A DNA stretch of 64,000 nt from Antedon mediterranea (taxonomy: Eukaryota; Animalia; Echinodermata): positions 38,490,388 through 38,554,387 of the forward strand of contig NC_092670.1 of assembly GCF_964355755.1 (NCBI RefSeq), read 5' to 3'. Positions within the stretch are counted from its first letter, which is position 1. Each line of letters begins with the position of its first letter. The notes below the pieces were generated by a model, which made no database searches, was not told where the DNA came from, and worked only from the letters and a program-made list of their open reading frames with translations. The position numbers and the translations under genes are program-made. Below, piece after piece: positions 27,641 to 49,496 of the stretch.

Positions 27641-28160
27641 AATTATTATTATTATTATTATTTTATTTATATAGCGCTTTTCCAAATTAGTATAAAATGA
27701 TCAAAGCGCTTTACATCAGCACACCTAACAATGAGTCACTTCTTAGGAAATAGATGTGTTTTAAGGGCTTTATTAAATTTTAAAACCGTGGTTTGTTCCC
27801 GGATCACAGACGGGAGTTCATTCCACATCACCGGTCCAAATTTTGAGAAAGTATTATTTCCAGAGGTCCGCTTTTCGAGACAATGATCCAATCTAGTGTG
27901 ATCTATCTCGGGCCTCAGGCCTCTCTTAGCACATCTATACACCCGTAAGAGATTGCTCAGATTACAGGGCGCATTATTATTTATACAATTGTAGACATGA
28001 AGTAACACTTTAAAAGTGATTCTACTTTCAACAGGTAGCCAATGCAATTCATAAAGCAGAGGTCTAGAACTAACAAACATAGGTACTTAGTAAATTAACC
28101 TGGCAGCCCGGTTCTGAAGCTTTTGTAATCTCGAAACGTTATGTTTGGACATTCCAACAA
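27641..28160 (-). mobile_element. 3' fragment of an L2/CR1-group LINE
   Basis: The ORF2 C-terminus reads LQNRAARL...ELHWLPVESRITFKVLL...WNELP...FNKALKTHLF, followed by a short 3' UTR with a GCGCTTT...AAAGCGC hairpin and an (AAT)n tail. Confidence 0.85.
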
Positions 28161-30084
28161 ATTTAATATGAAAGACTTTGATTGTTGATAAAAATTGAAT
28201 GTATAAAAATCCAAACTGAATATGACTAAAAATATAATATCAATACAAGAAAAAGATTGAAAAAGAATTTTATATAGCTTACATCCTACCAGTGGGACAG
28301 CCAGTCGACAAATCGTGTCAAATTTCGACTCGGAGAGGGCGCCCTACTTTTCTAATTTGGTTCAAAATTGCTAAATTTTAGGGTGTTGGAAAAACACAAT
28401 ATTTGTAATTTTAGCTGATTATCGGAAAAATATTGTTAGTGAAATAAATTCATAAATGGTTTTAATATATTGTCATGTAAAATTTAATGTATTTGAACAA
28501 AACGATAATCTGTAATTTAACGGCAAAATCAACCAATGTCTTTTTTCCGAAATTGTACCCTAGAAAATCGTTAAAATAAAATATTTAGAAAAATTGAACA
28601 GTCCTGAATTTAAAATCCCTGTTAGAAAAATTAATAATCTACAGTATACGATATTAAGATACAAAATTCGGTGGTTGGGATGCAGCTCCGACTATTCAAA
28701 CTAAAGGTACCACTATTTGTTCCATCGAAAACTAGCGAAACCGCCATTTTGTAAACACATCGTCATCGTGTTTATGAATTTATTTATAGAGCGAACGATA
28801 TACGCATGATATACGCGATGTTTATAATTGTCCGCGTATAAGAATTCATATAAATAATACATTCCAATACAACGTATAATATTATTACTTGTTTATTTAT
28901 CACAGTATACATTTTAGTTGAGGAATATTTTCATAACTATTATAATAGCTTTTATAAGAGTCCGAGGCCTAGCCCTATTAACGAGCGATTGTTCCAGGGG
29001 CGGAAAGTCACTTAGTGACGTTGTGATCGGGCGCGTAGGGCCTAGCTAATATTAAAAATATTACCTGAAATAAGCGGCTAACAAGAACTGTTATATACTT
29101 GCTTACAATTGTTTTGTTATTGATGAACAAACAAGCAATTAGATTGAATAACAAATTATTTATTCATTTTTTTGGGTAAAAACATGTACAAACTAGTAGT
29201 AGTACTGTATAATATAAATTAATAGTATATTAAACTAATACAGTATAAATAATAAAATATAAAATAGGCCTAACATACAATAAATATTCAATTTTTAAGG
29301 TCTATCACATGACAATAACATAATTTACAGAGTATAGTGTAGTAGGTTTGCATTCAACATAAATATTTATTCAACATTTTGTTTTAAATAATTAAATTAT
29401 AGTTTGGGTATTACAATGTCGGTAGGTACCGGTGTCATCTTTTTATCCACTTCACTCTCAGTTTGAAGTCACAAAGACAGAGAACTCTGCATCATCAACG
29501 ATTCCTGTAAGTGTCAGAAAAAATAATAAATATTATTTAAAAAAAAATGTTAATGTCTGGTTGTATATATAATTATAATATTATTATGATGACATAAAAG
29601 TAAGGCAAATAGAAGCTGTATTTTATTAATTAAATTACAGTATTTACTATTATTATTTATATAATCTAGGCCTACTAGTAGCCTAGCTAGGCATCTATTG
29701 AGCCTAATAAATCAAATAATAAATGAAAAATAAAATAATAATATTAATACTGATTGAAAAAAAGGATTTTTTGGGGCGGGGGATCAGATCACCAGGCTAG
29801 GCCGGTGTAAGATTGAAATGTGTCCATCATTCAAAAGTGTCCGGGTGGACACTTTTCAGCATTGGATAATGTCCAATTGCATGTTTCAACGGGTTCGCGG
29901 GCGTTTTCCAACAATTTAATGCTGTCCGGCGCGTTTAATAATGTCTGACCCTTGGATTGAATACCGTCCGTGGTTGAGATTTGAGATTCAGGTTTTGATC
30001 GTGATTGCGCATGCACTTGTCTTTTTTTAACGACCACTATTTGTTAATAATGCCAAACTAGTTTTTATTTTTCAAAGATAACTT

Positions 30085-33000
30085 GGCTTAAAACACCTCC
30101 AATTAGCGACCATTATATTATTTGGTATGAATAAAGACAAGAAGAATAAATAACAATATAATAATAATCATGTAATAAAAACAAGTAATTATACTGGTCC
30201 TCTTCCAATTAAAGAACACTTTAGTTTAGACACTTCCAATTAGCGACCATTTTTATTGTTTTGTATGAGTAAAGACAAGAGTAATAATAGTTTTTAATCA
30301 TGTGACAAAAAACAAGTAATTGTACTGGTCCTCTTCCAATTAAAGATCACTTAAAATTAAACACTTCCAATTAGCGACCGTTTTATTATTTTGTATGAGT
30401 AAAGACAAGAATAATAAATAGTTTATAATCATGTGATAAAAAACAAGTAATTGTACTGGTCCTCTTCCAATTAAAGATCACTTAAATTTAAACACTTCCA
30501 ATTAGCGACCGTTATTATTGTTTTGTATGAATAGAAACAAGAAGAATAAATAGATTTTAATCATGTGATAAAAAACAAGTAATTGTACTGGTCCTCTTCC
30601 AATTAAAGATCACTTTAATTTAAACACTTCCAATTAGCGACCGTTATATTATTTTGTATGAATAAAGGCAAGAATAATAAATAGATTTTAATCATATGAC
30701 AAAAAAACAAGTAATTGTACTGGTCCTCTTTCAATTAAAGATCACTTTACTTTAAGACACTTCCAATTAGCGACCGTTATATTGTTTTGTATGAGTACAG
30801 ACAAGAAGAATAAATAGATTTTAATCATGTGATAAAAAACAAGTAATTGTACTGGTCCTCTTCCAATTAAAGGTCACTTTACTGTAAGACACTTCCAATT
30901 AGCGACCGTTATATTATTTTGTATGAGTACAGACAAGAAGAATAAATAGATTTTAATCATGTGATAAAAAACAAGTAATTGTACTGGTCCTCTTCCAATG
31001 AAAGATAACTTTACTTTAAGACACTTCCAATTAGCGACCGTTATATTATTTTTTATGAATAAAAACATGAAGCATAAATAGTTTATAATCATGTGATATA
31101 AAATAAGTAATTGTACTGGTCTTCTTCCAATTAAAGATCACTTTACTTTAAGACACTTCCAATTAGCGACCGTTATATTATTTTGTATGAGTACAGACAA
31201 TTAGAAGAATAAATAGATTTTAATCATGTAATAAAAAACAAGTAATTGTACTGGTCCTCTTCCAATGAAAGATCACTTTACTTTAAGACACTTCCATTTA
31301 GCGACCGTTATATTATTTTGTATGAGTACAGACAAGAAGAATAAATAGATTTTAATCATGTGATAAAAAAACAAGTAATTGTACTGGTCCTCTTCCAATT
31401 AAAGATCACTTTACTTTAAGACACTTCCAATTAGCGACCGTTATATTATTTTGTATGAGTACAGACAAGAATAATAAATAGATTTTAATCATGTGATAAA
31501 AAATAAGTAATTGTACTGGTCCTCTTCCAATTAAAGGTCACTTTACTTCAAGAAACTTCCATTTAGCGACCGTTATATTATTTTGTATGAATAAAGACAA
31601 GAATAATAAATAGTTTATAATCATGTGATATAAAATAAGTAATTGTACGGGTACTCTTCCAATTAAAGGTCACTTTAATGTAAGACACTTCCAATTAGCG
31701 ACCGTTATATTATTTTGTATGAGTACAGACAAGAAGAATAAATAGATTTTAATCATGTGATAAAAAACAAGTAATTGTACTGGTCCTCTTCCAATGAAAG
31801 ATCACTTTACTTTAAGACACTTCCAATTAGCGACCGTTATATTATTTTTTATGAATAAAAACAAGAAGCATAAATAGTTTATAATCATGTGATATAAAAT
31901 AAGTAATTGTACTGGTCCTCTTCCAATTAAAGGTCACTTTACTGTAAGACACCTCCAATTAGCGACCGTTATATTATTTTGTATGAGTACAGACAATTAG
32001 AAGAATAAATAGATTTTAATCATGTGATAAAAAACAAGTAATTGTACTGGTCCTCTTCCAATGAAAGATCACTTTACTTTAAGACACTTCCATTTAGCGA
32101 CCGTTATATTATTTTGTATGAGTACAGACAAGAAGAATAAATAGATTTTAATCATGTGATAAAAAACAAGTAATTGTACTGGTCCTCTTCCAATTAAAGA
32201 TCACTTTACTTTAAGACACTTCCAATTAGCGACCGTTATATTATTTTGTATGAGTACAGACAAGAAGAATAAATAGATTTTAATCATGTGATAAAAAATA
32301 AGTAATTGTACTGGTCCTCTTCCAATTAAAGGTCACTTTACTGTAAGACACTTCCATTTAGCGACCGTTATATTATTTTGTATGAGTACAGACAAGAAGA
32401 ATAAATAGATTTTATTCATGTGATAAAAAACAAGTAATTGTACTGGTCCTCTTCCAATGAAAGATCACTTTACTTTAAAACACTTCCAATTAGCGACCGT
32501 TATATTATTTTTTATGAATAAAAACAAGAAGCATAAATAGTTTATAATCATGTGATATAAAATAAGTAATTGTACTGGTCCTCTTCCAATTAAAGGTCAC
32601 TTTACTGTAAGACACCTCCAATTAGCGACCGTTATATTATTTTGTATGAGTACAGACAATTAGAAGAATAAATAGATTTTAATCATGTGATAAAAAACAA
32701 GTAATTGTACTGGTCCTCTTCCAATGAAAGATCACTTTACTTTAAGACACTTCCATTTAGCGACCGTTATATTATTTTGTATGAGTACAGACAAGAAGAA
32801 TAAATAGATTTTAATCATGTGATAAAAAACAAGTAATTGTACTGGTCCTCTTCCAATTAAAGATCACTTTACTTTAAGACACTTCCAATTAGCGACCGTT
32901 ATATTATTTTGTATGAGTACAGACAAGAAGAATAAATAGATTTTAATCATGTGATAAAAAATAAGTAATTGTACTGGTCCTTTTCCAATTAAAGGTCACT

Positions 33001-33235
33001 TTACTTTAAGACACTTCCATTTAGCGACCGTTATATTATTTTGTATGAATAAAGACAAGAAGAATAAATACTAGTTAAGACAAAAAGAATAAATAGTTTA
33101 TAATCATGTGATAAAAAACAAGTAATTGTACGGGTCCTCTTCCAATTATAGATCACTTTAGTTTAAACACTTCCAATTAGCGACCGTTATATTATTTTGT
33201 ACGAGTAAAGACAAGAAGAATAAATAGTTTACTTG
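30085..33235. repeat. Tandem array of ~132-bp units (~24 copies) inside the Ginger element
   Basis: The unit GACACTTCCAATTAGCGACCGTTATATTATTTTGTATGAGTACAGACAAGAAGAAT...GTACTGGTCCTCTTCCAATTAAAGATCACTTT recurs; AGCGACC at 30901, 31033 and 31165 gives a period of 132. Confidence 0.97.
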
Positions 33236-33994
33236 TTTAATCCCCAATCAATTAAAAGTTGCACCTTTTTATAATCAACACGATATAGCTGATCTCTTGA
33301 AAAAACATAATCAGTTTTACTGAAGTATTATGTTAATTGGTACATTGATCGTCACATCGAGAATATGGTAGGGGTGTCACACTATGTGCGTCTAGGGTGA
33401 ATGCAAAGATAATGACATCGATATAGCGCCACATCAACACGTTTTTATGCACCTTTGGTGTAAGTATTTATTTTAGTATTTTGTCCTTAAATCAGAATTT
33501 ATATTCAAAGAAAAAATGACTTGTTATGTAAAAAAACAACAATTCGGTATCTGGAATCTTAAAATTAATGTATCTATAAAAATAATTAATATGGGATAGG
33601 CCTGAGACCTCATACATTTGTTAATAGGGCTACTTTATTGAACCTTCATTTTATCGGATGTTATAAGAACGCTTGCTTCAACCGATTCTTTTTTTGAACA
33701 GCATTTTGTTTAAAGGCGATTGTGTTATTTTCAATGTTTAATAAACTTCTGGAATTTCAGAGAAACCCATTTTAATAAACAAAAGCTTCTTATAAAATGT
33801 GCTTACTGGATAATGTTTCATACATGTTTGGCTGGTTCAAATTTACTTTACTTTTGCTTTTCCGCTACTCCCCTGTTATACTATATATTTGTTGTTATGT
33901 AGAAAGATTGAAAATAAATTCATTCATTCATTCTTCTTTTATTTCGAAAAAAAAAAATTCTCCATAGTTCAGTAACAAGTGTACATTATTGTAA

Positions 33995-34076
33995 ATATAA
34001 CAAATACATATACATATATATATATATATAATATATATGTATTTGTTATATTTACAATAATGTACACTTGTTACTG

Positions 34077-34120
<44 letters not shown>
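33995..34120. repeat. (TA)n microsatellite
   Basis: Pure and interrupted TA runs directly upstream of the tRNA-like tandem. Confidence 0.9.
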
Positions 34121-34121
<1 letters not shown>

Positions 34122-34195
34122 TGTGTTCCAACCGTACCACGCCGAGAATGTTAAAGGGTCGTTATCCGGTCGAGTTAAAGAACAATACCATGAAA

Positions 34196-34267
34196 GCCCC
34201 AGTGGTCTAATGGTTAGGGCAACTGCATATCAAGCCGACGGTCCGAGTTCGAGCCTCGGTTGGGGCG
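34196..34267 (+). tRNA. tRNA-like sequence copy 1 (degenerate anticodon stem; probably a SINE head or pseudo-tRNA)
   Basis: GCCCCAG/TTGGGGC acceptor stem, A box TGGTCTAATGG, B box GAGTTCGAGCC, followed by a T5 run. Confidence 0.55.
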
Positions 34268-34461
34268 ACTTTTTCTCATTCTCTCAGATTTCCTCATCTT
34301 TATCGTTTCAAAAATTAATTAAATCATTTTCAGTGTATCACCGGGCGGTTTGGAATTTATTTCTATGCCTGTTGTGTTTACAACTGAGGACTAGTGCTGT
34401 TCCGCCGTACCACGCCGAGAATGTTAAAGAGTCGCTATCCAATCGAGTTCGAACCGTGAAA

Positions 34462-34533
34462 GCCCCAGTGGTCTAACGGTTAGGACATCTGCATATCAAG
34501 CAGGCGGTCCGAGTTCGAGTCTCGGTTGGGGCG
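34462..34533 (+). tRNA. tRNA-like sequence copy 2, complete cloverleaf with anticodon ATC (Asp-type; likely tRNA-derived repeat)
   Basis: GCCCCAG TG GTCT AACGGTTA GGAC A TCTGC ATATCAA GCAGG CGGT CCGAG TTCGAGT CTCGG TTGGGGC G: all four stems pair over 72 nt, but position 32 is an atypical A. Confidence 0.6.
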
Positions 34534-35672
34534 ACTTTAACTCATTCTCACAGATTTCCTCATCTTTATCGTTTCAAATTAATTAATTAAATTTCAGTAT
34601 ATTACCGGGCGGTTTAGAATTAATGTTCTATGCTACATAGTCACGTGGTTAGAACAATAGTTTCATATATCTACTATGTAGATTGGATGAAGGAAAAGCA
34701 AATTCATGAATACATTACAAATAAATGTATGAATTGTGAATTACAAAAATATTAAATGTTGTTGTCTTGTCAGAATGAGTTGTAAATATGAACGAGTTTT
34801 GTAAACATAAATTATATATCATTGATCATTACTTATATTAACAGGATAAAATAATAATAGTGTAATAATAATGAACAATAGTTACAGAAAAATATTTATT
34901 TATTTATTTATTTATTGCTATTAAAACTTGTTTCAGTAAGTGTGTTTGTATTTATTTTACTTTGTTATTGATCATCATTGGTCTGGCTACCAATACATTG
35001 GAAGCACGCAAGCCTCGCTACCACGTCAAGGTTGATGATCATAGCGAGGGTAGGTTGCACGTTTGTATGTGCCCCTTTGACCAAAGAAAACATATTATAG
35101 AAGAAAATTGCATAACATTATGAAACAGAATCATATGAGTTGTAAATATGAAAAAGTTTTTTAAACATAAAAATACAATAAAAATAAACACTAGTTACAA
35201 TCTAATTCACGTACTTTTACCTTACCGGACCTTTAGTCGCGTTATTCTTTTATACAATCTGCTTTTTAATTAATTTTTTAATCCTTGTAGCGATCAAAGC
35301 AGGGCGCATGACACATCATTGCATGTTTACACTGGACACACTGTATTTGATCTGTTGTTACCTGCCATTAGACCCCTTGAGCCTTTGACGTACTTATGCT
35401 CAGATATTCGTCTTCCGTTGATTCAATGAAAGATGGTGACGCTTTAATTAGCCGCTGTGGTGAATCTATGTTCTTCTTTCTGGTCCGACAAATGCAATTG
35501 GTATTTCTTCGTCGATGAGTTTCAGACAAAGCCGACAATCTCCTCTTGACGGAAGCACCTGTAAAAAATCAAAGCATTAACGAAACTTACCTCTATAAGG
35601 TAAACAAATACCCTTTTCACCATTTAATGCTTCTGTGTATGTTGAGATTACCGGTCATAGGTAGGCCTACAG

Positions 35673-38600
35673 TTAAAGAGTGACGTTGTATGAATCAACA
35701 TATAATTGTCCAGGTACTTCATTGTTGCTCTGATGAATCCTTTCCGGGAAATGTTCCATGTCACAAAGCAAATTGAATATATTTGGATCGATATCATCTT
35801 TTAGATGGTTGACTGCTTCAATGTCATAATGTGTGTCCGTGAATTCAGATACGTATATAACGTCCATAATGCCTTCGGAACGCATTACCGCTTCATCTTC
35901 GTAATTATCTACCAGAGCAGCATTGAGGGTCACATCGGATACAATATCCCAGTATTTCCGTGCAAGGTGGTTTTTGATTGGTGCGTATGGTGTACGAGTG
36001 TATTTTAATTCAGCGTCATAAGTTTTCTTGTCTACATCCAGGACAGGCTCAAAGTGTGCACATAAGTTTGATAGGTAGATGTTTCTTTCAGATACTAAAT
36101 CACCAAACTGATTACTTATTGGTGCATATTTCAACCATTCATAATGTGGAAGCCCTTTCCTTCTTCCATATTTACTGTAAACATAAACATTCGTATTTGA
36201 CATGGTCGCAAATGCCATGATTTCGATGTCCGAACCCCATGTCCCATATTCCCCCATTCTCGTGTCTTCCACGTATCGTTCAAATGATCTGGATTCAATT
36301 TTTTCAAATAGGTTTTTGTTCATGGACATATAGTTTAGTATGTAATCCCGTACAACTACATGGTAGTTCTGGACACCAAAGAGAATATAACTCAAAGCCC
36401 TAAAAAGACAGTTGCCGTCCCCTCTCATATTAACAACTTTAGTAGGCCTGGCTGCCTTGTCCATTTCACATTTTAAGTGAGTTTTGTGAAAATTTTTGAC
36501 ATTGATACCAAATGGTGCTGCCTTTTCAAGCTGCCAATTGGCATCGACAGGAAAGAATAACTTTCTTGAAGTTTTCGTGTTGAGGTATACCACATCACTA
36601 TCAGATACAGGCCTACTGTTGTCATGGTCATCATCCGGTGTGACATTATCATTGTCTAATGTAGGTATGTTATCGTGATTATCCAGTGTGATATCATCGT
36701 TCTTGGATGTAGGTATGTTAATGTGATCATCCGGTGTGATATCATAATTCTTGGATGTAGGTCTGTTATCGTTATCATCAACATTCTTGGATGTAGGTAT
36801 GTTAATAATGTGATCATCCGGTGTGATATCACCATTCTTGGATGTAGGTATGTTATCATGGTGCGTTACTTCAGGTGGGATGTCTGGCGTTCGCTTTCGT
36901 TTCTTTGGAGGGAGATGCTTATCATTGGTATTACATTTCTGTTTAGTGCTTGATGATGGACAGTTCAAAGAGGTTGTTTTATCGGACTTGTAATGTCTGA
37001 TCTTGTTTCCGTTAACAATAGCCCTTCTTCCTTTTAGTCGATATGTATTGTGAGTGAGGACTTTTTCTATAATATATGGACCAGTCCATCGAGCATTAAG
37101 TTTGCCTCCCTTTCTTGACAAATTTCTGGAATTCTGCAAGAGCACTTGATCTCCTGCATAGTACGTGTTGCTTTTAACACCAGCATCATGATAATGTTTT
37201 TGCTTTTTCTGTGCTTTTTTGATATTTTCTGATGCCTTTCTCCTTGAATCTTTGAGTTTCAAAAAAGCGTCCACTCTTATTTTTAAAGGAACAGTTCCGG
37301 ATATGTCATCTTTATTAGACGAAACGATGGGAATACGTAATTCTACAGGCAACACAGCCTTTCTACCGTAAACTAATGAGAATGGGTCACATTTCGTAGA
37401 CTTGTGCTCGGATGTTCTGTAGGCAAACAACACGTATGGGAGTTGTATATCCCAGTCATTTTGGTCTGCGTTGGTCAACGTCATAAGCATTGTGCAAAGT
37501 GTTCTGTTAAAGCGCTCTGTTTGCCCGCCTGTTTGAGGATGGTATGGTGAGGCAACTCTGTGGTCTACCCCAATCAGCTTACAGAAGCTGTCATTCAGCT
37601 CATTACAAAACTCTCTACCCTGGTCTGTAATCAATATAGAAGGTGTTCCATGTCTGCAGACAAAATCAATAAAAGATCTCAGCACTGTTTTAGCAGATTT
37701 ATCTGGAATTGCATCAGCTTCCACCCATTTGGTAAGGTACTCCGTAAATACAAGTAAGTACCGATTACCTGAAACACAGCAAATAATAATATAATAAGCC
37801 GTAATAATAGTAGTGTCAAAATGTCATGATGAGATGTACAACACCCGAACTGTACGAATGAAATAACAATAATAATAACAATATTAATATCAATAAATAT
37901 AATAAGAACAAGAACAATAATAATATCGTGGATTTACATAGCGCCTAATGTTGTAAAACCTCTATGCGCTGAACAGTATTACCCCAGTCATGGTTTGGAT
38001 CAAATTAAAACAGGCAGAAATAAAGATTATTACAGTATAGCCATAATCGATGTAAATCCGGTGACAATAATAAGAGCATCTGATTCTTGGTAAATCTAGT
38101 TTTTGTTGACAGTGTAAAAAAGAGAACTGTCATAATTTTAGTTTAGTTAACAATTTCAAGAAACCTCACAGAAATTGCGCTTGTGCCTTTACAATAATAA
38201 ATTTAAGTTCAGCCCTATTACAATAAAGGCCGAACAGAACTAATTATTAACTGTAATTTTAGGCCCTGAAGAATGAATTACAAAGTTTTCTGAACGTATT
38301 TCATTCATGTCTTCTTGCTTTTTACTTTTACGTTTTGATTTAGCTTTTTTATCCAGTCACAGCATTTTTGTTTTTCAGTAATTTGTCATGAGATACCTTA
38401 CCATTTTCTGTCTTTACCAAAGGCCCAACAATATCCATACCGATCTGTCTGAAAGCAGTATCTGTTACGGGTATAGGTTGAAGTGGCACTTTTGCTTTTT
38501 TTAAAACTTCTTTCCGTTGGCACTGATCACAGGCGGCTATAAAATTACGAACACCATCAAATGACCCCTTCCAATAATACCTTTCGCGTATCTTTTTCCA

Positions 38601-41496
38601 ACTGTTAAAAAAAAAAAAAAATGTGTTTATTGTATTGATGATATTCAATCTCTTTGTAGGTTTACTATTGACCTTAAAACTGTATTATGGATTCTTTAAA
38701 TATTTTAATTTTATTTTGTTTTTTAATATTATTTATTATTTATTACCGCAGTTCACATCACCATTCTCATCAATGCATTATAATAACATTACAGTTTGGC
38801 GTTCCATATATTTTAACTTTTCGTTTAAGGCAAGCACTGGGCACAACTGATTAATTAACTTTTAATATTTATCTATGTTTCTAGTTTTTTTATTTGACAA
38901 TGATAAATGAATATTGAAAAGGGAAAAGATACCTTCTATGAAAAATGTCCATCAGTCCGTGATGATTCCGTGTCACATTGTACCAGGGAGATTTACATCT
39001 CCCTGATTGTACCGTGTTTACATTCTAAATACCCCCATATAAACTTCAAATTGAGTGCAGCCTCCCATACAAAATAACTACGCCCTCAATCTGGTAATAA
39101 TTCACTCAGGCAATAAAAAACTAACTTGAAAAGTATAAATAATTAATTGTCCTACTAGAATTATTGTGTACGCTTGGTGAATGTGCGACAGAGTAGATAT
39201 AAAAATCGCCACTTTTTTTTTAAAATAAACAAGGGGAAATATATACGTTTTAACACTACATACTGGTTAAATTTATTTATTTTTAAAATGTAGAGGACAC
39301 CCTATTAAGGAAACCGGGTACTTTTTAGTGAGCCACAATGGTAGATTGCGAGAGGTAGTGGTCCTTTAAAATAGGTGGTCACTTACGAAAGATGTGGTCG
39401 ATAAGGGAGGTGGTCGCTTACGATATGTGATCGATTATGAGAAGCGGTCTCCTAACAGAGAGGTCGTTTATTAGAAGTGGTCACTTAAGAGAGGTGATTT
39501 ATACAAGAGTTGGTATATTATGAGAAGCGGTCCATTTAGAGATATGGTGGTCTTCTAAAAGAGATCATCACTTACGAGAGGCGGTCGAAAATAAAAAGCG
39601 GTCGCTTACGAGAGTTGTGGTTGTTAAGAGAGGTGGTCGCTTACTACGAGAGGTGGTCGATTATGAGAAGCGGTCCATAATGAGAGGATGTGATCACTTA
39701 CAATAGTTGGTCGATTATGGGAAGCGATCCCTTAACAGAGACGATGGCCGTTTAATAGAGGTGGTCACCCAAAAAAGTTGTCGTTACGAGAGAGGAAGTC
39801 GATTATTTGAAACGGTCCCTTAAAAGAGTTGGTTGCTTACGATGTGTGGTCGTTTTAGAAAGTTGGTCGGTTACGAGACGTGGATAGATGGATAGCTAAG
39901 TAAACAGATGCATTTGCACATGATTTAGACATTTAGGTTTGTAAAATATATATTTTCTACATTAGCTGGCGATAGTCCTACATTAGCTGGGATGCAATTT
40001 TCGTTCCTACATTCGTTGTTGATCGTTCTACATGGTGTTAATTTTTTTCATTACATAAGCTGCAGGTGGTTTTACTCCATTACCGGGGGATTGGAAACTA
40101 GTTTTGTTATTGAAAATGCGTTTTTTTTAAAGAAGTATTCCCTAAAAAAAAATGTAATAATCCACTTTAAAGTTACATAATAAAAGTCTTCTTCCTTACC
40201 TTTTTTTTTGTCAAATTGTGTTTTCTTTCATAAGTATACATTTTAAACGAACGAAAGTTAATACTGATATGGCTTTTTGCATTATGAATGAGCAACTAAT
40301 ATTGAACATATTTATTATACCAAGACCTGAATAAGTTTTCATTCGGGAAGTATTTGTATCACTATTTAAAACTAAGATATCTCTCATGAGGGATATCTCT
40401 ATATTACTTACTTACCAAGATATTTAGAATGGAAGATTCTTGTCCCATTCGGAATATCACAAGTGGATTTTTTTCTGTGTTAGTTATGCAGTGGGCACGT
40501 GTAGAGTACCGTATATGAACTGTTATAAAACTAAAACATTACTATTATAGATAGAGCTAGTTGTACTGTATTCTTCTTGGTTTTTCGAGGTGTAATAAGC
40601 CTACAAAAAAATATCTATTAACATAGATATTTCTTTTAAAAAGTAAGACATCTTAGTTTTCAATTGAAATAATCTATCTTTATTAAAAGAGATATCTTAA
40701 TTTTGAACTAAAGATATATGCGTTGTGTAGCACTGTGTAAATTATATAATAATAATCTGTCAAATTATTGAAACAGTGCTCATATTCGGAACATTTTTGA
40801 TTAATTATTGAATGCCAATATATGTTTTGTATTTTTTACATGTGGTATTTTATGTTCAACTTCAATATATTTATACAATTAATTGCGATAATATATTGAG
40901 TAGAAATTATTATCGACTTAACATATTTTTCATTCATGGAGGTATAAAAATATGTTTGAATCTATATATAAAATACTAACTTCATAATGTACACGGTCAT
41001 TATACATTTTTCAATTGATAAGTATTAGTTATTATTCATTTAATTCATTCATTTAATCATTTGTTTCGAATTCTGTGGTCCACAGAAAGTAAAATTACGT
41101 ATAAAATCATTTAAAAACAATGCTGTACTAATTACTAATACTCATCTCAGGATGGCATTCCACCTGGCCAAACATATAAACAGTTTTAAAGTCACCCAGA
41201 AACTTATCGAAGCTTAAATATTATTTAATTGACAAACTTTAAACTTACGTTTTGTTGACACCCAAGTGACCACCATGTGCCTGCTTATGGATACTGTTTA
41301 ACACTTCGTTTTTTTCTTTCGGTAACAATACACGCAACAATCTACCAGAATGTTGTTTGTAATACAAGATATCACGAAGAATTGTAAAGTTCTTGGCTTT
41401 CCGTCGCAAACTTCGTTTTAATATTTCAGAATAATTTACAGGATAAACGTTGTTTTGTAGATAGTTTCTCAAGGCATCAAACTCATGATCGGCCAT
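35673..41496 (-). CDS. Ginger1/GIN-like transposase (Gypsy-type integrase) fused to an OTU cysteine protease domain; 3 exons, 847 aa
   Basis: Exons 41496-41249 (248 nt), 38601-38402 (200 nt) and 37768-35673 (2096 nt) total 2544 nt in frame. Junctions read GHLGVNKT/WKKIRERYYW and TENG/NRYLLVFTEYLTKWVEA. Motifs: YPYY-like N-terminus (YLQNNVYP...LYY), H-H-C-C, GMDIVGP / ITDQGREF / GQTERFN (D,D,E), WTGPY, then RGDGNCLFRALS...WGSDIEI...AHFEPV (OTU). Confidence 0.92.
39340..40095 (+). repeat. Single-arm copy of the same GAGAGGTGGTCG repeat family in transposase intron 1
   Basis: TTACGAGACGTGGATAGATGGATAGCTA and the following sequence are shared with 43801-43930. Confidence 0.75.
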
Positions 41497-41721
41497 AATG
41501 ATAATAAGTAAAAATAGAAAGAAGGCAGATTGTAACGAACAACACCGTGATTGGAACTTTGCAAGCAAAGTGAATGATTTTTTAAATGTAGGAGGTTTTG
41601 AACAAACATTGAGCCAATCAGCTTCTTGCTACATTTGTTTTAACCAATTGCCGATTAGAAGAAAGAGCAAACAGTTTTGTCAGGTGTAGGCCTATAATTT
41701 AAACTTTGTGCCTTAAGTGGA

Positions 41722-42151
41722 TGTCACGAACTCCTTTTACGTATGTTTCCGAGCGGTTGAAAATACTTTAGAAACTCCCTTGTGACATAAAAGTATACAC
41801 ACCAAATTCACAAAGTTGTAAAATAACTCAAAAACAAATCTTTAATTTCAATCAACTTCAACTTTCAACAACCCAGTAAGCATTTTAAACAACAGCTTCA
41901 CAATAACTTTTACAATCTAATATCCAACCTCTAATATCCAACAACATGACAATAGTTTTACATCCCTTTATATACAAGATGTTCCTATCCTTCTATATCA
42001 TTCTTTATACTTCTTATTCTATTTGATTACAGTTTCTATTAATAGCATACTGGAATGTTCCTGATTGTTATTATATTAATTATACATGATGTCTTAAATG
42101 TAAACATCTTATTCTAGAATGTTCATGGTTAGGGAATGGTAATTTATTACA
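41722..42151 (-). mobile_element. Probable solo LTR (430 bp)
   Basis: The minus strand reads TGTAATAA...GTGACA (TG...CA), with TATATAAAGGG near 41970 and a downstream ATTAAA. Flanks GTGGA / GTGGC form a 5-bp duplication with one mismatch. No adjacent PBS or internal region. Confidence 0.65.
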
Positions 42152-43029
42152 GTGGCAAGTACACAAAAAATGAGAGAAAAAAACTATTGGAGGGAAATGC
42201 CATTTATTAAATTAAATTTCGAAGATACTCTTATTGGTAAACGCTTCAGTCGTTCTATTACACAATAAATAGCACATTCAGATAGGAGTATAAAATATAA
42301 TCATATAGTTATTCTTTATTACATATTATAAGTTCATCTCAAATTATATTATAATATTAATTGAAATTGTATTTAAATTTGTATCCGTTTTTGTCGACAG
42401 GACCACAATGCAAAACAAGTATATTTCTACTTGATTGTGTATAATCCTATATAAATATGTTGTTAAATAAATAAAATAATATTAAATAGTAATCTACGTA
42501 AAATAATATTATAGTACATAAGTTCGTATTAAAACCGTTCAGGCTATGAGGCAACCCCCGCTCCCTGTATATTAAATAGAAACATTTTTTATAATACTTA
42601 TACTAGAATCATATACTAATTTATTTAGTTATTTTTTAAAATAAGAGAATTAAATTACGTAACATACTGTGGTATATAATTCTTGTAATGAAATCATATT
42701 CATGGTAAGCGTAATCTTAATTTGAGATATGGCAAGTTCGCACCCCTTCTCCTGACAAATAACAGATGACAGTTAACACGACTACCGGTAATTAATATCT
42801 CCCGAGAGCCGCTGTTTTGAGGTTGACCTGACAATTGTGGCCTGAGTTATGGGACATTACCCTTGCTGGACATCTGGTAAAAATAAATACTGATTATGCT
42901 GCCACTTTAGTACACAAAACAATAAATAAAAAAAAATAAAAAAACACAACTTGTGGCATTTCCTTTACACTAGTCCCTGTTCAAAACCGCTAGTGTAGAA
43001 AACGGCAGCAAATGTCGTCGAAACTGTCA

Positions 43030-44010
43030 AATCCACCCATGTAGTAAAACCTAGAACTAGCTAATGTAGAAACACCAACAGTTATTTATTAAATAAAAAT
43101 CAACATTAGCTAATATACAACTTAACAGGTAATGAAGTAACGAAAATTGCCTCACAGCTGATGTAGTTAATATCGCCAGCTAATAAAATAATAATTATAT
43201 ATTTTATAAACCTAAATGTCTAAATCATGTGCAAATGTATTTCTCTACTTAGTTTAGCTGTCAGTCTATCCACCTCTCGTAAGTGATCGGCTTTCAAAAC
43301 GTAGCACTCTGATCGTAAGCAACTACCCTTGTTAGCGACCACCTTTAATATTTAAAAGGGACTACCTCTGTTAAAGGACCGCTTCTCACAATGGACAACT
43401 TCCTGAAGGGGTAACCTCCTCTCATAAGGGACTGCTTTTCATAAACTACCACCGCTCGTAGACGACCACTTCTTTTACCGACTACACCTCCCGTAAGTGA
43501 CCACCTCAATAGAGGTGGTAATTTGCGAAAGGTGGTCGTTACGGATGGTAGTCGATTATGAGAAGTGGTCCCAGTGGAGAGGTGGACGTTTTTTTTTATA
43601 GAGAGGTCGACACTTTAGGCGTGGTCGTTAAGAGAGGTAGTCCGTCATGAGGTTGATTATGAGAAGCCGAGGTGGTGGTCCTTTAAAATAGCTCGTCCTT
43701 GACGAGTGGTGTGGTCGTTAAGAGATGGTGGGCGATTATCAGAGACGGTGGTCGTTCAATAGAGGTGGTTACTTACTAGAAGTGGTTGTTGGTTGGTCAC
43801 TTACGAGACGTGGATAGATGGATAGCTACCGGTAAGTAAAGAAATGCATTTTCACATGATGTAGACAGGTTTTTAAATTATACAATATTTTCAACATTAG
43901 CTGTGAGGCAATTTTCGTTACTACATTATCTGCTGACCGTTCTAAATTAGCTGGTGTTGATTTTAAAAATTGATACATAAGCTGTTGGTATTTCTGGTAT
44001 TAGCTGGTGG
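43030..44010. repeat. ~1-kb degenerate palindrome built from GAGAGGTGGTCG-type subrepeats (foldback/MITE-like)
   Basis: The CACCTC-rich left arm switches to a GAGGTG-rich right arm at CCACCTCAATAGAGGTGG (~43510). GAAAATTGCCTCACAGCT (43142) is inverted as AGCTGTGAGGCAATTTTC (~43900). Confidence 0.75.
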
Positions 44011-44554
44011 TTTCTATGTTTATATGTCCATATAAAACAAAAATACAACCGCGATTTTTTAAACTCAGCTGCATGTACAGACATTGTGGCAAAGACGTTT
44101 TAAACGCTTCATTTCAATATAAGCCATTATTCTATGAATTTGATGTATAACGGTATTGGACTGTTTGTATTGGGAACGAAATACCCTAATATTCGAAAAA
44201 AACAAAAAACCGAAATACCCTTGAGTGAACGAATAATTATGATGCGCAATTAAGGTGTTTATTTTGCCATATAAAATATAAAAAACAAATATTTTTTGGT
44301 AATATGCATCAACAATATTTTTCAAATGTATTTTAGATAAATAAATAAATAATGTAAAGTCTCTAGAAACAAAGCAAATATTGTGACTAACCAATTCAAT
44401 GTTTTATTAAATAAAAACAAAAATCAGGCATCTGTGAAAAAAATATAATGAAAAAGAACTGACTTTAACAATGACGAACTTACTTGTTTAAAGAACTTTT
44501 GTTATCAGTTGATATTATTAAATTAGTAGCAGTATTATGAATATTACAAAATAA

Positions 44555-44840
44555 TATTTTGAGAACTGAAAAATATTTTGAGGGAACGAATATATTTAGG
44601 GAGAACAAAATAAGATTTCAAGAACTGAATAATATAAAAAACGAATTACTACTTCGAGACAAGGAATGATGATGATGATGATGATGATGATCGAGAGAAC
44701 GAAATAATTTCGAGGGAAATTATTTCGTTCTCTCGCGAAGTAGTAATTCGAATTTCGAATGAAATAATATTTCGAGATAACGAAATAGGTAGGCCCTATG
44801 CCTATATGATTTAGTGATATTCATTCCCTCGAAATAATAA
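44555..44840. repeat. Degenerate short-unit repeat with inverted arrangement (GAGAACGAAATAATATTTC)
   Basis: Several direct copies followed by inverted copies (TATTTCGTTCTCTCG) near the right end of the Ginger element. Confidence 0.6.
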
Positions 44841-46512
44841 TACAGTAGGCTATATATTTTTCAAGTTGTCGATTTACTTCAAATTGACAACAGGTTGTAT
44901 ATACTCAATCAAAAACAAACAATTTAATTTGATTAGACTATATGTCTCCAGATATAATAATAGTAATATTTATTTCAATCCACTTGATATTTTGCGATTC
45001 AAGTTGGTATTCTAAGGAATTATAATTACCCTAACGGGAGTTGGTGAACGTCCAGTGCCCTAGTTTTTACGGGGTTAATATGATGTCGATGTCTCGATGG
45101 TCCTACTTTTTTATCGATGAAAGCTGCCCGGGTGGTTGCGGCCATTTTCAACAGCTAGTATTACAATATTCAATGCTGAAAATTGTCCAGTGGACACTTT
45201 CAAACACCGGACAGATTTAAATCTTACACCGGCCAGGACCAATGATACTCGTAATCAGTACAACTTAACGACTATCGGATCAGCATCAACACAGCACAAC
45301 ACACGTCTCGCTATATCGCCTATACTGACACACGTGTCTCGCGTTGCCGAAACCACGCTCACAGCTAGAAAATGTACCTACCTTTCGAGGCCTGAGAATA
45401 CACCAATAAATTTTGAACAGGATAGAAATATATCATACTCGATTAAACTAATATTATTCTTGATAAAACAATTGATTATAATTTGTTTAATTTGTTGGGA
45501 TGCACCTCCGACTATTCAGAAAATGGACAACAAAACAGTAGTCAAATCGTACCACATTTATAAATTTCACGAGTCCCGACTTCAGTCGCCGAATGTATTG
45601 TATTAGCTTCGGCTTCTTTGAAGGAAACCGATTGGTTATTCAATTATACTTATTAGGAAATGCTTTTACCATAATAGGTAATGTTGGGCGGTTCTTAAAT
45701 ATTCATGAGAGCTTAAAATAAAACAGCACTTATTTGCTAGGCGACGAAAAATCATGGTTTCAGTTTTCAACGATAGGTGGCGCTTCAAAATCGTCAATGC
45801 GGAAGTAAGTCGATTTTACACGATTTAACGGTCAAAACGCGAAGTGGCTTTCCCACTGCTACCACCCAATATGTATAGACTTACTTGCCCTAAGTCTGCA
45901 GTTATTTCGAGGTTTTTCGATGTTTCTGAAAAAGTTTACAAGCTCAAGTAGTATACGTATGAAACGCCATATGTGCCAAATATTTATCTTTTTACTAATA
46001 ATATTAAGTCAAACTCCGTCTGGAACCTAGACTGCCAATATTGGCTACGCTCCATTTCATTGCACATTGGCAAACTTGTTATTATAGTTTAATAGATCAA
46101 TATAAATTATAGTAAAGATTCAAAATTGCAAACAGCTTTCTTAAATGTCGTGTTTCTAACATTTCTGATGACAGTTAAGAACATCAGCCTCTAATTGCCA
46201 TAGACACGTGGTAATTGTAATAGACTACATATTTATGAATGATGATATTGTGCTAATGTAATATCCACTTACCGTATAAGATGAACTTGCGTTGTATTAA
46301 TGATGGATGGTTGCTATGTAAAATCTTATCTTTATCACGCGACATTTCTGCAAAAGTAAACCGAATGAAGAAGAATAAGTGATTAATATTTAAAGACGGG
46401 AACATCTTACGTAATATCATAAATAAACTAGAAAATTCGATTGCCATAATTCAATACTTACATGTGAGAAATGTTTAAAACAAGATATGGTAATTATGGA
46501 AGCAAACATTGA

Positions 46513-46822
46513 AGATGCATTGTCCCCAAAAAACATGAAAAATAAAGATTAATTAAATCAGACTTTGAATATGTTATTTTGTAGTTTTAATAAAGTTAAT
46601 CACTTCTGTAGAAAAAAAAACGAACATAATAATGTTTTCACTTATAAAATGACATAATAAATGGTTAAATTTAACCAAAAATCTATTCATTGGCTGCCAG
46701 CCAATTTGACAATTTTTCGCTTTAAATTACCGATTTTCATAATTACAGTATTATGGGACATTAAAATGGCATATTCAACAAAAACAATTTTAAAAATTAA
46801 TTTCCAGGGGGACAATACATCT
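46513..46822. mobile_element. MITE family D with AGATGTATTGTCCCC TIRs and TTAA-like flanks (possibly Kolobok-like)
   Basis: Ends AAGATGCATTGTCCCC ... GGGGACAATACATCTTTAA. Related copies at approximately 12080-12435, 18455-18745, 50205-50355, 58510-58828 and 61570-62083. Confidence 0.7.
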
Positions 46823-48261
46823 TTAATGTTAATGTTGTCACTGAAACGTAACAACAGCAGGGGCGATATTTAACTTTAAGAAATGGAAAATTCTATCGGT
46901 TCGATACTGCAAGCGTCATTAGATAGAACGTAACAGACTATTGCATGTCTAAGTAGATACATATCTAACTGTATTGAGTACTTTTAATACATGATACTGA
47001 TAGCAACATTTCTGAACACATTGTAACCTCAATGTAAACAAGAAATTTTTCTTACTGCTCGACTTTTTGACGTAACAGTCTTCTTCATTAAATAATGCTA
47101 AAAAGGCGCGAAAATGTATATTACAGACAATGATATAGACACTAACCAATATTTCGTTTGCTACTACCTCACTTGTATTTAAACTGATAATCATTTGAAT
47201 TATCCACCCATCCTTATTCTATTCAGATAAACATGGGGATTATAATACTGTTTTCACATTGCCTAGTAAAAGTTTACATCCGAGGCTTTTACACCGGCGT
47301 GTTTGCAACCCGGTGCGTGTGTGTATAGGAGTTTTGCTAGACGTTGTGAATGTGGTGTATATCTATAGAAGTGTGGAATATTTACATTTATTTACACCTA
47401 AATAAATAAGGCTATATTTCATCATTCACCTCGTGCCATTTGTTGTGACGTCTATAGTCTTTTGAGGGAAGACAACATGTGGGTTGGTTTGAATAGAAAA
47501 AGTATTTGTAACGAGGAATTCCGGGCAGGAGGTTGTGCACAACGAATGAATAAAGTGAACGGTACAGAGTAGAATATGCTGCGTATTTATTGTGTAAGCA
47601 TAACACATTTATTTGTGCCATTACACTCATAACCATTCATTATTTATATACTATTCTGTAGTAGGATGAGACGCAGGCACTGGTGAAGATTATAGTGTAT
47701 ATTGATGTTAAATTCTTAATATTAATTTATATTTATAAGGGAAATACTGATATGTCTCCGAATTTGTGCTTTTATGGAATTAACTCAATTGAAACAGTTA
47801 TGCTTCTTGATTATATTAACTACAATACATACAAAATATGCCCTCATATTTCCATTCAATTCTACAATTGATACAACAATAACAATAATGTTGACAAGAT
47901 AAGCACAGTTTATTATAATAAGCCTAATAAATAATATACGCATGATTGCAAAACGATTTATTGAAAAAAATATGTATGCTTTAATTGCGACTAGACTAGA
48001 CCTTTTTTTCAAATAATCACAGTATGACGTTTGGTATTGTAGGCATTCGGGCCTATTGCGTTTGTAGCGAACGGGTCTTTGTGAGGGATCCCTAACATTT
48101 GTCCCCATCAGTATAGGTCTAATTCATTAAACCATTGGAACCACGATCACAAAACTTGACAATACCATAGATATATTATATAAGATCTCTATGATAATAC
48201 ATAAGCGGACAGCTAACTGTAGTGTGAACTGGCATAAAAAGTATATTTACTACTTCTTAAT

Positions 48262-49496
48262 TTATAAACAGACGTCTAGCATTTGCTTAATGTCAAAGGT
48301 TAAATCAGCTTTTTCAATTTCAAACGATACATCGATTTCATCAATACTTTCATAGCGATTCGAGTGTAATGTCCTATTTGCTTTAGTCTTTCCCTTATGG
48401 TCTCCAAGATCGTGCATGTTGTTCCATTTACTATAGGTTATTGGCGACTCAAATTCGTCCATATTGGCGTCACTATCTTCCATTTTTAACTGGTGTATCG
48501 TTTTACGGATGTCCATCAATTGTGTTATAAGTTGTTGGTCCATAGCGCGCATATCAATCTGTAAAAGTGGAAAATATCATGATTATTATACATTTTGGAA
48601 AAATTCCGAACGTTTTACAATATGTTATTTATATCAGCTGCTGCTTTTACGGATTTTTTCGAGAGCTTTTCCAACTTTCGTAAGCCTAATATGTGTTTAG
48701 GGTGATGTCGTGAATAAATTAGCCGAACTTCCGACAGCATAATAAATAAATCATCATGATTATTGTTTAAAAACATATTACGGTAAGTAGTCAATGATAC
48801 TATATATTTTATAGGAATATCAATCATGAAAAATATCATGATTTTTGTTTTAAAAAAATGTTACGGTTTTGTAGTCAATTATACTACAGTACTGTATATA
48901 TTCTATAGGAATTACAAACAAAAACCCGGGCACTAATTAGTTAGTTAGCATTAGTGTTTAAATCCTCCCGGATATAATAAGATTATCCTGCCGAGGCCTA
49001 TCTGAATAAGAAATCATCAAGACATTTCGAAAAACACCCCTCGTTTGTCAGAAACTATTGTTTTGACAGACTAATACGTAACTTTAAATATTTTTCGACT
49101 TTTCATACCATGAGCAAAAAAACTAAATGAAAGTAATTATGAAATAAATCTGTCTGTATAACTTACCAATTCTTTTCTTAGCCAAGAAATGGAACCTTGC
49201 AATTTAGCTAAGCGTTCTTTTCTACTTAATAAAGAAGTGTCATGATTCTCGTCATTTTCTTCGGTTGAGCTCCATCTTAAATCCAATATCTTCTTTCTTC
49301 TAAGTTCTCCAGGGGAGATTACAGGTGCACCAGATGGCAGGTCAGAAGAGGATACGACATTTGTGGATTCCTGGGTCATCAACGGACTTTTCTCTGGTAC
49401 TACGTTTACAGCGTAATCGCTTGACTTTTTACGGCTTCTTCGCGTTATGCCATCTAGTCCTAATGGTTTCATAACTTTCTGGAAAAACACAGACAT
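48262..49496 (-). CDS. FAM167-like coiled-coil protein, 2 exons (49496-49167, 48558-48262), 208 aa
   Basis: The splice junction TTG|gtaagt...ttacag|ATT joins SISWLRKEL to IDMRAMDQQLITQLMDIRKTIHQLKME, which resembles the FAM167/DUF3259 signature (WLRxEL.EMR..DQQLARQL..LR..I..LK.E). Confidence 0.75.

What the first reader, a model, noticed from the sequence alone, without database searches (positions are those of the whole stretch)
29806..45228. Very large (15.4 kb), cargo-laden Ginger1 transposon with both ends and a CCGG duplication intact
Seen: imperfect ~65-bp TIRs beginning TGTAAGATT and flanked by CCGG on both sides, enclosing an uninterrupted spliced integrase gene that occupies only 2.5 kb of coding sequence. 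Known: Ginger1 elements are cut-and-paste transposons with Gypsy-like integrases, TGT termini and 4-bp CCGG-type duplications, usually only a few kb long. Inference: this is an oversized family member that may move a satellite array, tRNA-like units, an LTR and a palindrome as cargo. The two TIRs differ at many positions while the ORF and TSD look undecayed, which suggests asymmetric ends rather than old age.
Basis: partly seen in the sequence, partly recalled or inferred. Interest (0 to 1): 0.85.

Follow-up and report, generated by a model that had tools for sequence, protein, structure and literature searches.

The report
Oversized satellite-carrying Ginger1 transposon family
This is an intact copy of a young, multi-copy Ginger1 'cut-and-paste' jumping gene, 15.4 kb long and about twice the longest in the family's original description, that likely moves as one piece with a satellite array and several hitch-hiking repeats inside it.

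Summary
The element is real: 15,423 bp, imperfect 67-bp TIRs (53 of 67 identical), CCGG on both sides, and an intact spliced 847-aa H2C2–DDE–GPY–OTU transposase. The empty site with one CCGG exists in read contigs of two organisms. Five annotated proteins 2–4 residues from this one lie on four chromosome-size contigs. Near-identical contigs across most of the interior have about 9–18 times the depth of two flank contigs, and one contig joins the left TIR to the satellite at transposase depth. Left/right TIR differences are shared by the family. The 'cargo' is no captured gene: it is a family-borne 132-bp array plus nested host repeats (tRNA-type SINE-like units, an LTR-like piece, foldback repeats) in introns and flanks. 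No second copy was read end to end; array length elsewhere and 33.2–35.0 kb are untested, and shorter variants exist. It is larger than the 2.6–7.1 kb Ginger1 elements of Bao 2010 but below the 20-kb 'giant' bar, and satellite-bearing DNA transposons are known. Verdict: new size variant of a known kind, moderate interest.

The parts
29802..29805 (.). left target-site duplication CCGG
   Evidence: empty site with one CCGG in contigs
29806..29872 (+). left TIR, 67 nt, with TGTCC/GGACA motifs at positions 16, 33, 42
29873..30073 (.). left subterminal region
   Evidence: one contig spans 29846-30117 at depth 628 (X1) and 77 (X5)
30074..33227 (+). 132-bp satellite array, 24 units, 85-100% alike, with a recent five-unit duplication (units 14-16 = 19-21)
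33970..34076 (.). AT-rich hairpin, 46-nt arms, 98% complementary, followed by (AT)n
   Evidence: sharing by other copies not tested
34124..34633 (+). two tandem ~270-bp units with tRNA-like heads (34196-34267, 34462-34533; ATC anticodon), likely SINE copies
   Evidence: bin depth 193,889 in X1
35466..35558 (-). optional fourth exon, used by 4 of 5 annotated copies (863/865 aa)
   Evidence: not seen as a contig break in X5
35673..37768 (-). transposase exon 3: DDE core (D198, E234), GPY, OTU domain, conserved C-terminal block
38402..38601 (-). transposase exon 2: C2 half of zinc finger and first catalytic D139
39350..40062 (.). partial copy of the foldback repeat (GGTCG-type subrepeats) inside intron 1
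41249..41496 (-). transposase exon 1: ATG, YPxxY (YPVNY) motif, H2 half of zinc finger
41722..41951 (.). LTR-like high-copy repeat (TGTCA...TGACA), no target duplication; right edge may reach 41965
   Evidence: depth 35,516 at 41772 in X1
43056..44008 (.). foldback (MITE-like) repeat, arms of about 230 nt, 73% complementary
45163..45228 (-). right TIR, 66 nt
45229..45232 (.). right target-site duplication CCGG
28290..45858 (.). outer host element: non-autonomous TIR repeat of 2,142 bp without the insert, CAGTGGGA ends, CTAC on both sides
   Evidence: bin depth 5,680 at 45280-45725 in X1

Best explanation
This is an intact copy of a young, multi-copy OTU-type Ginger1 DNA transposon whose copies likely move as a unit of about 15 kb, carrying a family-borne 132-bp satellite array and nested host repeats as passive passengers. 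Shown: the ends, the CCGG duplication, the empty site, the intact three-exon reading frame, other near-identical transposase copies, and multi-copy depth for most of the interior. Inferred from family knowledge (Bao 2010): the spliced mRNA gives a Gypsy-like integrase that binds the two ends, excises the element and inserts it at CCGG with a 4-bp stagger. Inferred from the anatomy: the enzyme reads the terminal TGTAAGATT and the three TGTCC/GGACA motifs kept at both ends, so the letters between them drift apart. Repeats landed in a founder copy only where they spared the frame (intron 1, upstream, downstream) and were then copied along. The array beside the left end grows and shrinks by unequal exchange. 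This copy jumped into a CCGG inside a 2.1-kb non-autonomous element.
For: Empty site: the X1 loose end before 45229 equals window 29779-29801; the X8 loose end behind 29805 equals 45233-45262. Other flanks at the left end, with the match reaching through CCGG: 3 contigs in X1, 3 in X5, 2 in X8. Five annotated proteins on contigs of 41.4 (two), 40.9, 31.7 and 28.6 Mb, differing from the window's reading by 2-4 residues outside the alternative C-terminus; the 218-aa end of exon 3 is on record on 7 contigs. X1 contigs at 35012-41750 have depth 406-718 with 0-2 other letters, against 40 and 47 for two flank contigs. Left TIR to satellite is bridged at 628 (X1) and 77 (X5), with 44 letters in the array. 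X5 contigs bridge exon 2 into the partial foldback (62.9), the LTR-like right edge (69.2) and the foldback to the right end (82.9). Listed contigs cover 8,762 of 10,217 bases of 35012-45228. Satellite depth of 14,372-17,818 is near 24 x 628 = 15,077. Of the 14 left/right TIR differences, only position 22 has a listed variant. X5 contigs break at the borders of introns 1 and 2 where X1 contigs run on, which hints at spliced RNA.
Against: No second copy was read from end to end; no genome was held. The tool says contig depth is no copy number, and the baseline is two contigs in X1 and one bin in X5. X1 may be the sample the window came from, and X5 may be partly RNA. Copies vary: a 524-nt deletion in exon 3 at depth 219 (X1 only), lower depth in intron 1 (406) and at 42331 (347), and a second end type at depth 1,263-1,343 that diverges after 29961. 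The other flanks may belong to that second type. The exon-1/LTR-like contig reaches only 29 letters into the repeat, under the 31-letter bar. No spliced joint was among the rows shown (374 hidden). Activity today is not shown.
Confidence: 0.72

Rival explanations
1. A mixed family: all copies share the ends, the transposase and a satellite stub, but this copy is an unusually long one, with its array expanded in place and the hairpin and tRNA-like units added after insertion. The moving unit would be about 10-12 kb.
For: The array has a recent internal duplication. The region 33228-35011 has no bridging contig. Deletion and depth variants exist. The second end type also adjoins the satellite (X5 record 12) and could account for part of the satellite depth.
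Against: Satellite depth fits about 24 units per window-type copy. The copy differs from the majority contigs at only 2 of 1,564 letters in exon 3, leaving little time for several later insertions.
Confidence: 0.2
2. The copies arose not by Ginger1 transposition but as passengers of the outer 2.1-kb element (a 17.6-kb composite) or by segmental duplication.
For: The outer element is itself high-copy; no contig listed gives the depth of the outer/Ginger join.
Against: Left ends with unrelated flanks and CCGG occur in all three runs laid, one at flank-like depth 47. The transposase copies keep open frames on four chromosome-size contigs. Empty outer copies exist.
Confidence: 0.05
3. Only the ends and the gene are mobile family sequence, and the interior repeats are private to this locus.
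For: Each nested repeat is high-copy in the genome on its own.
Against: Joins between family sequence and the repeats are at multi-copy depth in two samples.
Confidence: 0.03

Closest known systems
Ginger1 DNA transposons, OTU type (Ginger1-1/2/3/11_HM, Ginger1-1_AC; Bao, Kapitonov, Jurka 2010, PMC2836005, parts 1-2 of 5 read)
   Same: TGTNR ends, 40-270-bp TIRs, 4-bp CCGG duplication, one spliced transposase with YPYY, H2C2, DDE, GPY/F and OTU, 1-4 introns, low copy number
   Different: 15.4 kb against 2.6-7.1 kb (OTU types with a given length: 2.6-4.6 kb); 847 aa against about 500-800; 3.1-kb satellite array and nested repeats
L006, a compact Ginger1-like element found here
   Same: integrase plus OTU, CCGG on both sides, TGT ends that differ between left and right
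   Different: 3,296 bp; long TIRs built of short repeats; about 30% protein identity
GingerRoot (PMC6839031, passages read)
   Same: integrase-related TIR transposons of 3.9-12.9 kb with extra DNA inside
   Different: 6-bp duplication, mostly TA ends, no YPYY/HHCC/GPY, captures gene fragments
Satellite-bearing DNA elements: Tetris/TIR-220 (PMC4079207, abstract), miDNA4-MITE and CgHINE Helentrons (PMC9659126, PMC8268682, passages)
   Same: tandem array inside a mobile element that spreads it
   Different: those are non-autonomous or rolling-circle; this one codes its own intact DDE transposase
Enlarged En/Spm (CACTA) of Chondrus crispus, 16-20 kb (as cited in PMC6431247, section 5 read)
   Same: cut-and-paste elements of similar size
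   Different: enlarged by extra ORFs, not by repeats; different superfamily

Membership tests
Ginger1 | termini TGTNR, TIRs of 40-270 bp | tested here: met
   TGTAA at both ends; 67-column imperfect TIR
Ginger1 | 4-bp CCGG or CCGT/ACGG target-site duplication | tested here: met
   CCGG both sides; empty site has one copy
Ginger1 | YPYY motif upstream of the zinc finger | tested here: met
   YL...YPVNY at residues 12-23, by eye on the translation; aligns with YP in P0127; no profile run
Ginger1 | H2C2 zinc finger, DDE core, GPY/F motif | tested here: met
   PF17921, PF00665, PF24626 (weak); D139, D198, E234 and WTGPY; best solved relative Ty3 Gag-Pol, E 1.7e-26
Ginger1 | C-terminal OTU or Ulp1 domain | tested here: met
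   PF02338 E 1.2e-10; D600 and C603 invariant, H721 nearly so in 19 rows
Ginger1 | no gag, protease, RT or RNase H; introns allowed | tested here: met
   no other long ORF among 32 listed for 26000-50000; only 7 frames were run against Pfam; two GT-AG introns
Ginger1 | integrase groups with named Ginger1 references | tested here: inconclusive
   quick tree: 24 OTU-bearing integrases form one side of a branch (SH-aLRT 99) against 39 RT/RNase-H-linked ones, but no named Ginger1 sequence was in it
Ginger1 | length 2.6-7 kb (descriptive range, not a defining rule) | tested here: not met
   15,423 bp
Ginger2/Tdd | lacks GPY/F and YPYY; AT-rich RTATAY target | tested here: not met
   both motifs present; target is CCGG
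Gypsy LTR retrotransposon | direct LTRs with gag-pol | tested here: not met
   inverted ends, spliced integrase only
Polinton/Maverick | PolB, capsid, ATPase genes; 6-bp duplication | tested here: not met
   no such ORFs seen by eye; 4-bp duplication
solo LTR (inner piece 41722-41951) | TG...CA ends with a 4-6-bp duplication and a parent retroelement | tested here: inconclusive
   ends present, duplication absent; parent not searchable

The most novel reading that the evidence does not exclude
An autonomous Ginger1 that is still transposing at 15 kb and is the only home of its 132-bp satellite: every full copy delivers a ~3-kb array to a new chromosome, and a second, more numerous end type carries the same array. 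It would be the largest Ginger1 described and a natural model of a self-mobilising DDE transposon that seeds satellite DNA.
Probability: 0.4. Interest if true: 0.62.

Novelty: new variant of a known kind. Interest (0 to 1): 0.45.

Why it matters
It roughly doubles the published size range of Ginger1 and shows an integrase-type cut-and-paste element that likely moved more than 12 kb of non-coding DNA in nature, although efficiency is said to fall above 6 kb of cargo (PMC6431247, section 5). Most known satellite-spreading elements are non-autonomous or rolling-circle; here the enzyme and the array sit in one unit, in about ten near-identical copies that can be compared, so the birth and spread of a satellite can be followed locus by locus. 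It carries no captured genes and shows no new mechanism, which caps the interest.

Tried and rejected
No whole genome was held, so copies could not be aligned. The element has no blastn match in the rest of the window. A metagenome scan with the single protein found nothing. The alignment scan gave 79 loci, 5 with the integrase core: L006 is a complete 3.3-kb element; L029 is a Gypsy retroelement; L055 has integrase and OTU pieces around a hAT gene, with no ends found; L001 and L079 are short contigs with no CCGG-type ends. No locus matched the element's DNA. The idea that the satellite derives from the foldback's subrepeat failed (43 and 78 of 500 shuffles scored as high); the satellite is not like the TIR either. 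The Rfam miRNA hits on the AT hairpin are far below their gathering scores. Real tRNA genes were rejected as a reading of the two heads: ATC anticodon, tandem shared flanks, very high depth (that eukaryotic tRNA-Asp uses GTC is recalled). No RNA holder is listed. The careful tree did not finish; the quick tree was used, with 63 of 121 proteins (those I labelled OTU or RT/RNase H, with at least 130 aligned residues). Three look-ups of earlier findings returned nothing. Paper searches found no report of a large or satellite-bearing Ginger1, or of crinoid satellites; Repbase and subscription journals were not searchable, and no supplements were read, so larger Ginger1 entries may exist.
Full report
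Observation. The element runs from 29806 to 45228 (15,423 bp). Both ends start TGTAAGATT and are flanked by CCGG. The ends align over 67 columns with 53 identities; the score is 75 against at most 36 in 1,981 random pieces. The 14 differences fall outside the first nine letters and outside three TGTCC/GGACA motifs present at both ends; this is descriptive, since the motifs were picked for being shared. The gene is on the minus strand in three exons with GT-AG introns and gives 847 aa without a break. Pfam finds the H2C2 finger, the rve core and OTU; the DDE and OTU catalytic residues are present. Four of five annotated copies use a further small intron and end at 863-865 aa; homologues stop aligning before this point, so the difference is minor.

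Family. The features match Ginger1 as defined in PMC2836005 (parts 1-2 of 5 read): TGTNR ends, CCGG duplication, YPYY, H2C2, DDE, GPY, OTU, introns. In a quick tree, 24 OTU-bearing integrases including this one separate from 39 RT-linked ones (SH-aLRT 99); no named Ginger1 was included. The nearest other proteins have 50-57% identity in their best segment; named ones come from bivalves. The sources name the near-identical proteins Antedon mediterranea, a feather star.

Copies and empty site. Five annotated full-length proteins lie on four contigs of 28-41 Mb; none is letter-identical to the window's reading (2-4 differences outside the alternative end), and the 218-aa end of exon 3 is on record on 7 contigs. 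The element sits in a 2,142-bp non-autonomous TIR repeat (28290-45858, CTAC on both sides). Contigs of X1 and of X8 (organism B) read straight from the left flank through one CCGG into the right flank. This proves the duplication; whether the empty form is an allele or another copy of the outer repeat cannot be told. Left ends with other flanks occur in all three runs laid.

Is the interior shared? Of 11 runs listed I laid four on 34130-47500 and three on 29560-30200. In X1 the listed interior contigs have depth 406-718 with 0-2 other letters, against 40 and 47 for two flank contigs: about 9-18 fold. X5, another sample, gives 26-117 against 8.6 in one flank bin. The key contig runs from inside the left TIR 44 letters into the satellite, at 628 in X1 and 77 in X5, like the transposase (718, 104). 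X5 contigs also bridge into the partial foldback, out of the LTR-like piece and from the foldback to the right end. Together the listed contigs cover 8,762 of 10,217 bases between 35012 and 45228. Depth on the one satellite unit laid (14,372-17,818) is what 24 units in each window-type copy would give (15,077), so the array looks element-borne rather than a large genomic satellite that invaded. This is rough: only contigs at 90% or more were counted, and a second end type also adjoins the satellite. Against a uniform family: a 524-nt deletion (codons 642-817) at depth 219 in X1, lower depth at 39995-40786 and 42331, and a second end type about twice as deep. Depth is not a copy number by the tool's own caveat, X1 may be the source sample, and X5 may contain RNA.

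TIR asymmetry. In X1 the right-end contig at depth 1,263 (second end type) has all eight of its differences outside TIR positions 16-62. At the left end only position 22 of the 14 differing positions has a listed variant (2,102 of 3,291 in X1); places near contig ends may be unlisted. So the differences belong to the family and are not decay of this copy. They are not unusual: the compact relative L006 (3,296 bp, CCGG on both sides) also has mismatched ends.

Mechanism. Shown: ends, duplication, empty site, intact frame, copies, shared joins. Inferred: excision and insertion by the integrase-like enzyme at CCGG; binding to the repeated end motifs; accumulation of repeats in a founder copy at frame-neutral places; array turnover by unequal exchange (units 14-16 equal units 19-21). 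X5 contigs break at the borders of introns 1 and 2 where X1 contigs do not, a weak hint of spliced transcripts. The role of OTU is untested.

Comparison and verdict. Published Ginger1 elements are 2.6-7.1 kb, GingerRoot reaches 12.9 kb, enlarged CACTA elements 16-20 kb, and the review on giant elements sets its bar at 20 kb. Satellite arrays inside DNA elements are known from Tetris, miDNA4 and Helentrons, mostly non-autonomous. My seven paper searches found no Ginger1 of this size; Repbase could not be checked. The finding is a new size variant of a known kind, with one attractive feature: an autonomous element that seems to own and spread a satellite. Interest 0.45.

Noticed in passing
window 28290-45858: Outer non-autonomous TIR element, 2,142 bp when empty, CAGTGGGA ends, 4-bp CTAC duplication, high depth in both organisms laid; superfamily not assigned.
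   Followed up: partly
window 29847-29961 and 44700-45213: A second end type, about twice as deep as the window type in X1, diverges after 29961 and rejoins the satellite after 149 other letters (X5); possibly a non-autonomous partner family.
   Followed up: partly
window 35768-36291: A 524-nt deletion variant in X1 (depth 219) removes the end of the OTU domain and the C-terminal block but leaves the integrase.
   Followed up: partly
window 35673-35950 (minus strand): A conserved ~100-aa block after OTU (ending NIFNLLCD) is shared by one subgroup of relatives and absent from the other; no Pfam family.
   Followed up: no
window 48262-49511 (minus strand): Host gene with a weak FAM167 match (E 1.3e-4), about 2.5 kb beyond the outer element.
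   Followed up: no
window 27736-28086 (minus strand): Fragment that looks by eye like the 3' end of a LINE ORF2, just left of the outer element; no Pfam hit.
   Followed up: no
L006:11-3306: Complete 3,296-bp Ginger1-like element with CCGG duplication and TIRs built of short repeats.
   Followed up: yes
L055:6305-13381: Integrase and OTU pieces about 5 kb apart with a hAT-like gene between them; may be another large nested Ginger1; ends not found.
   Followed up: partly
X8 on window 29806-30152 and 41267-41466: Organism B has related left-end, satellite and exon-1 sequence (exon 1 about 92% alike), so the family is older than, or shared between, the two organisms.
   Followed up: no
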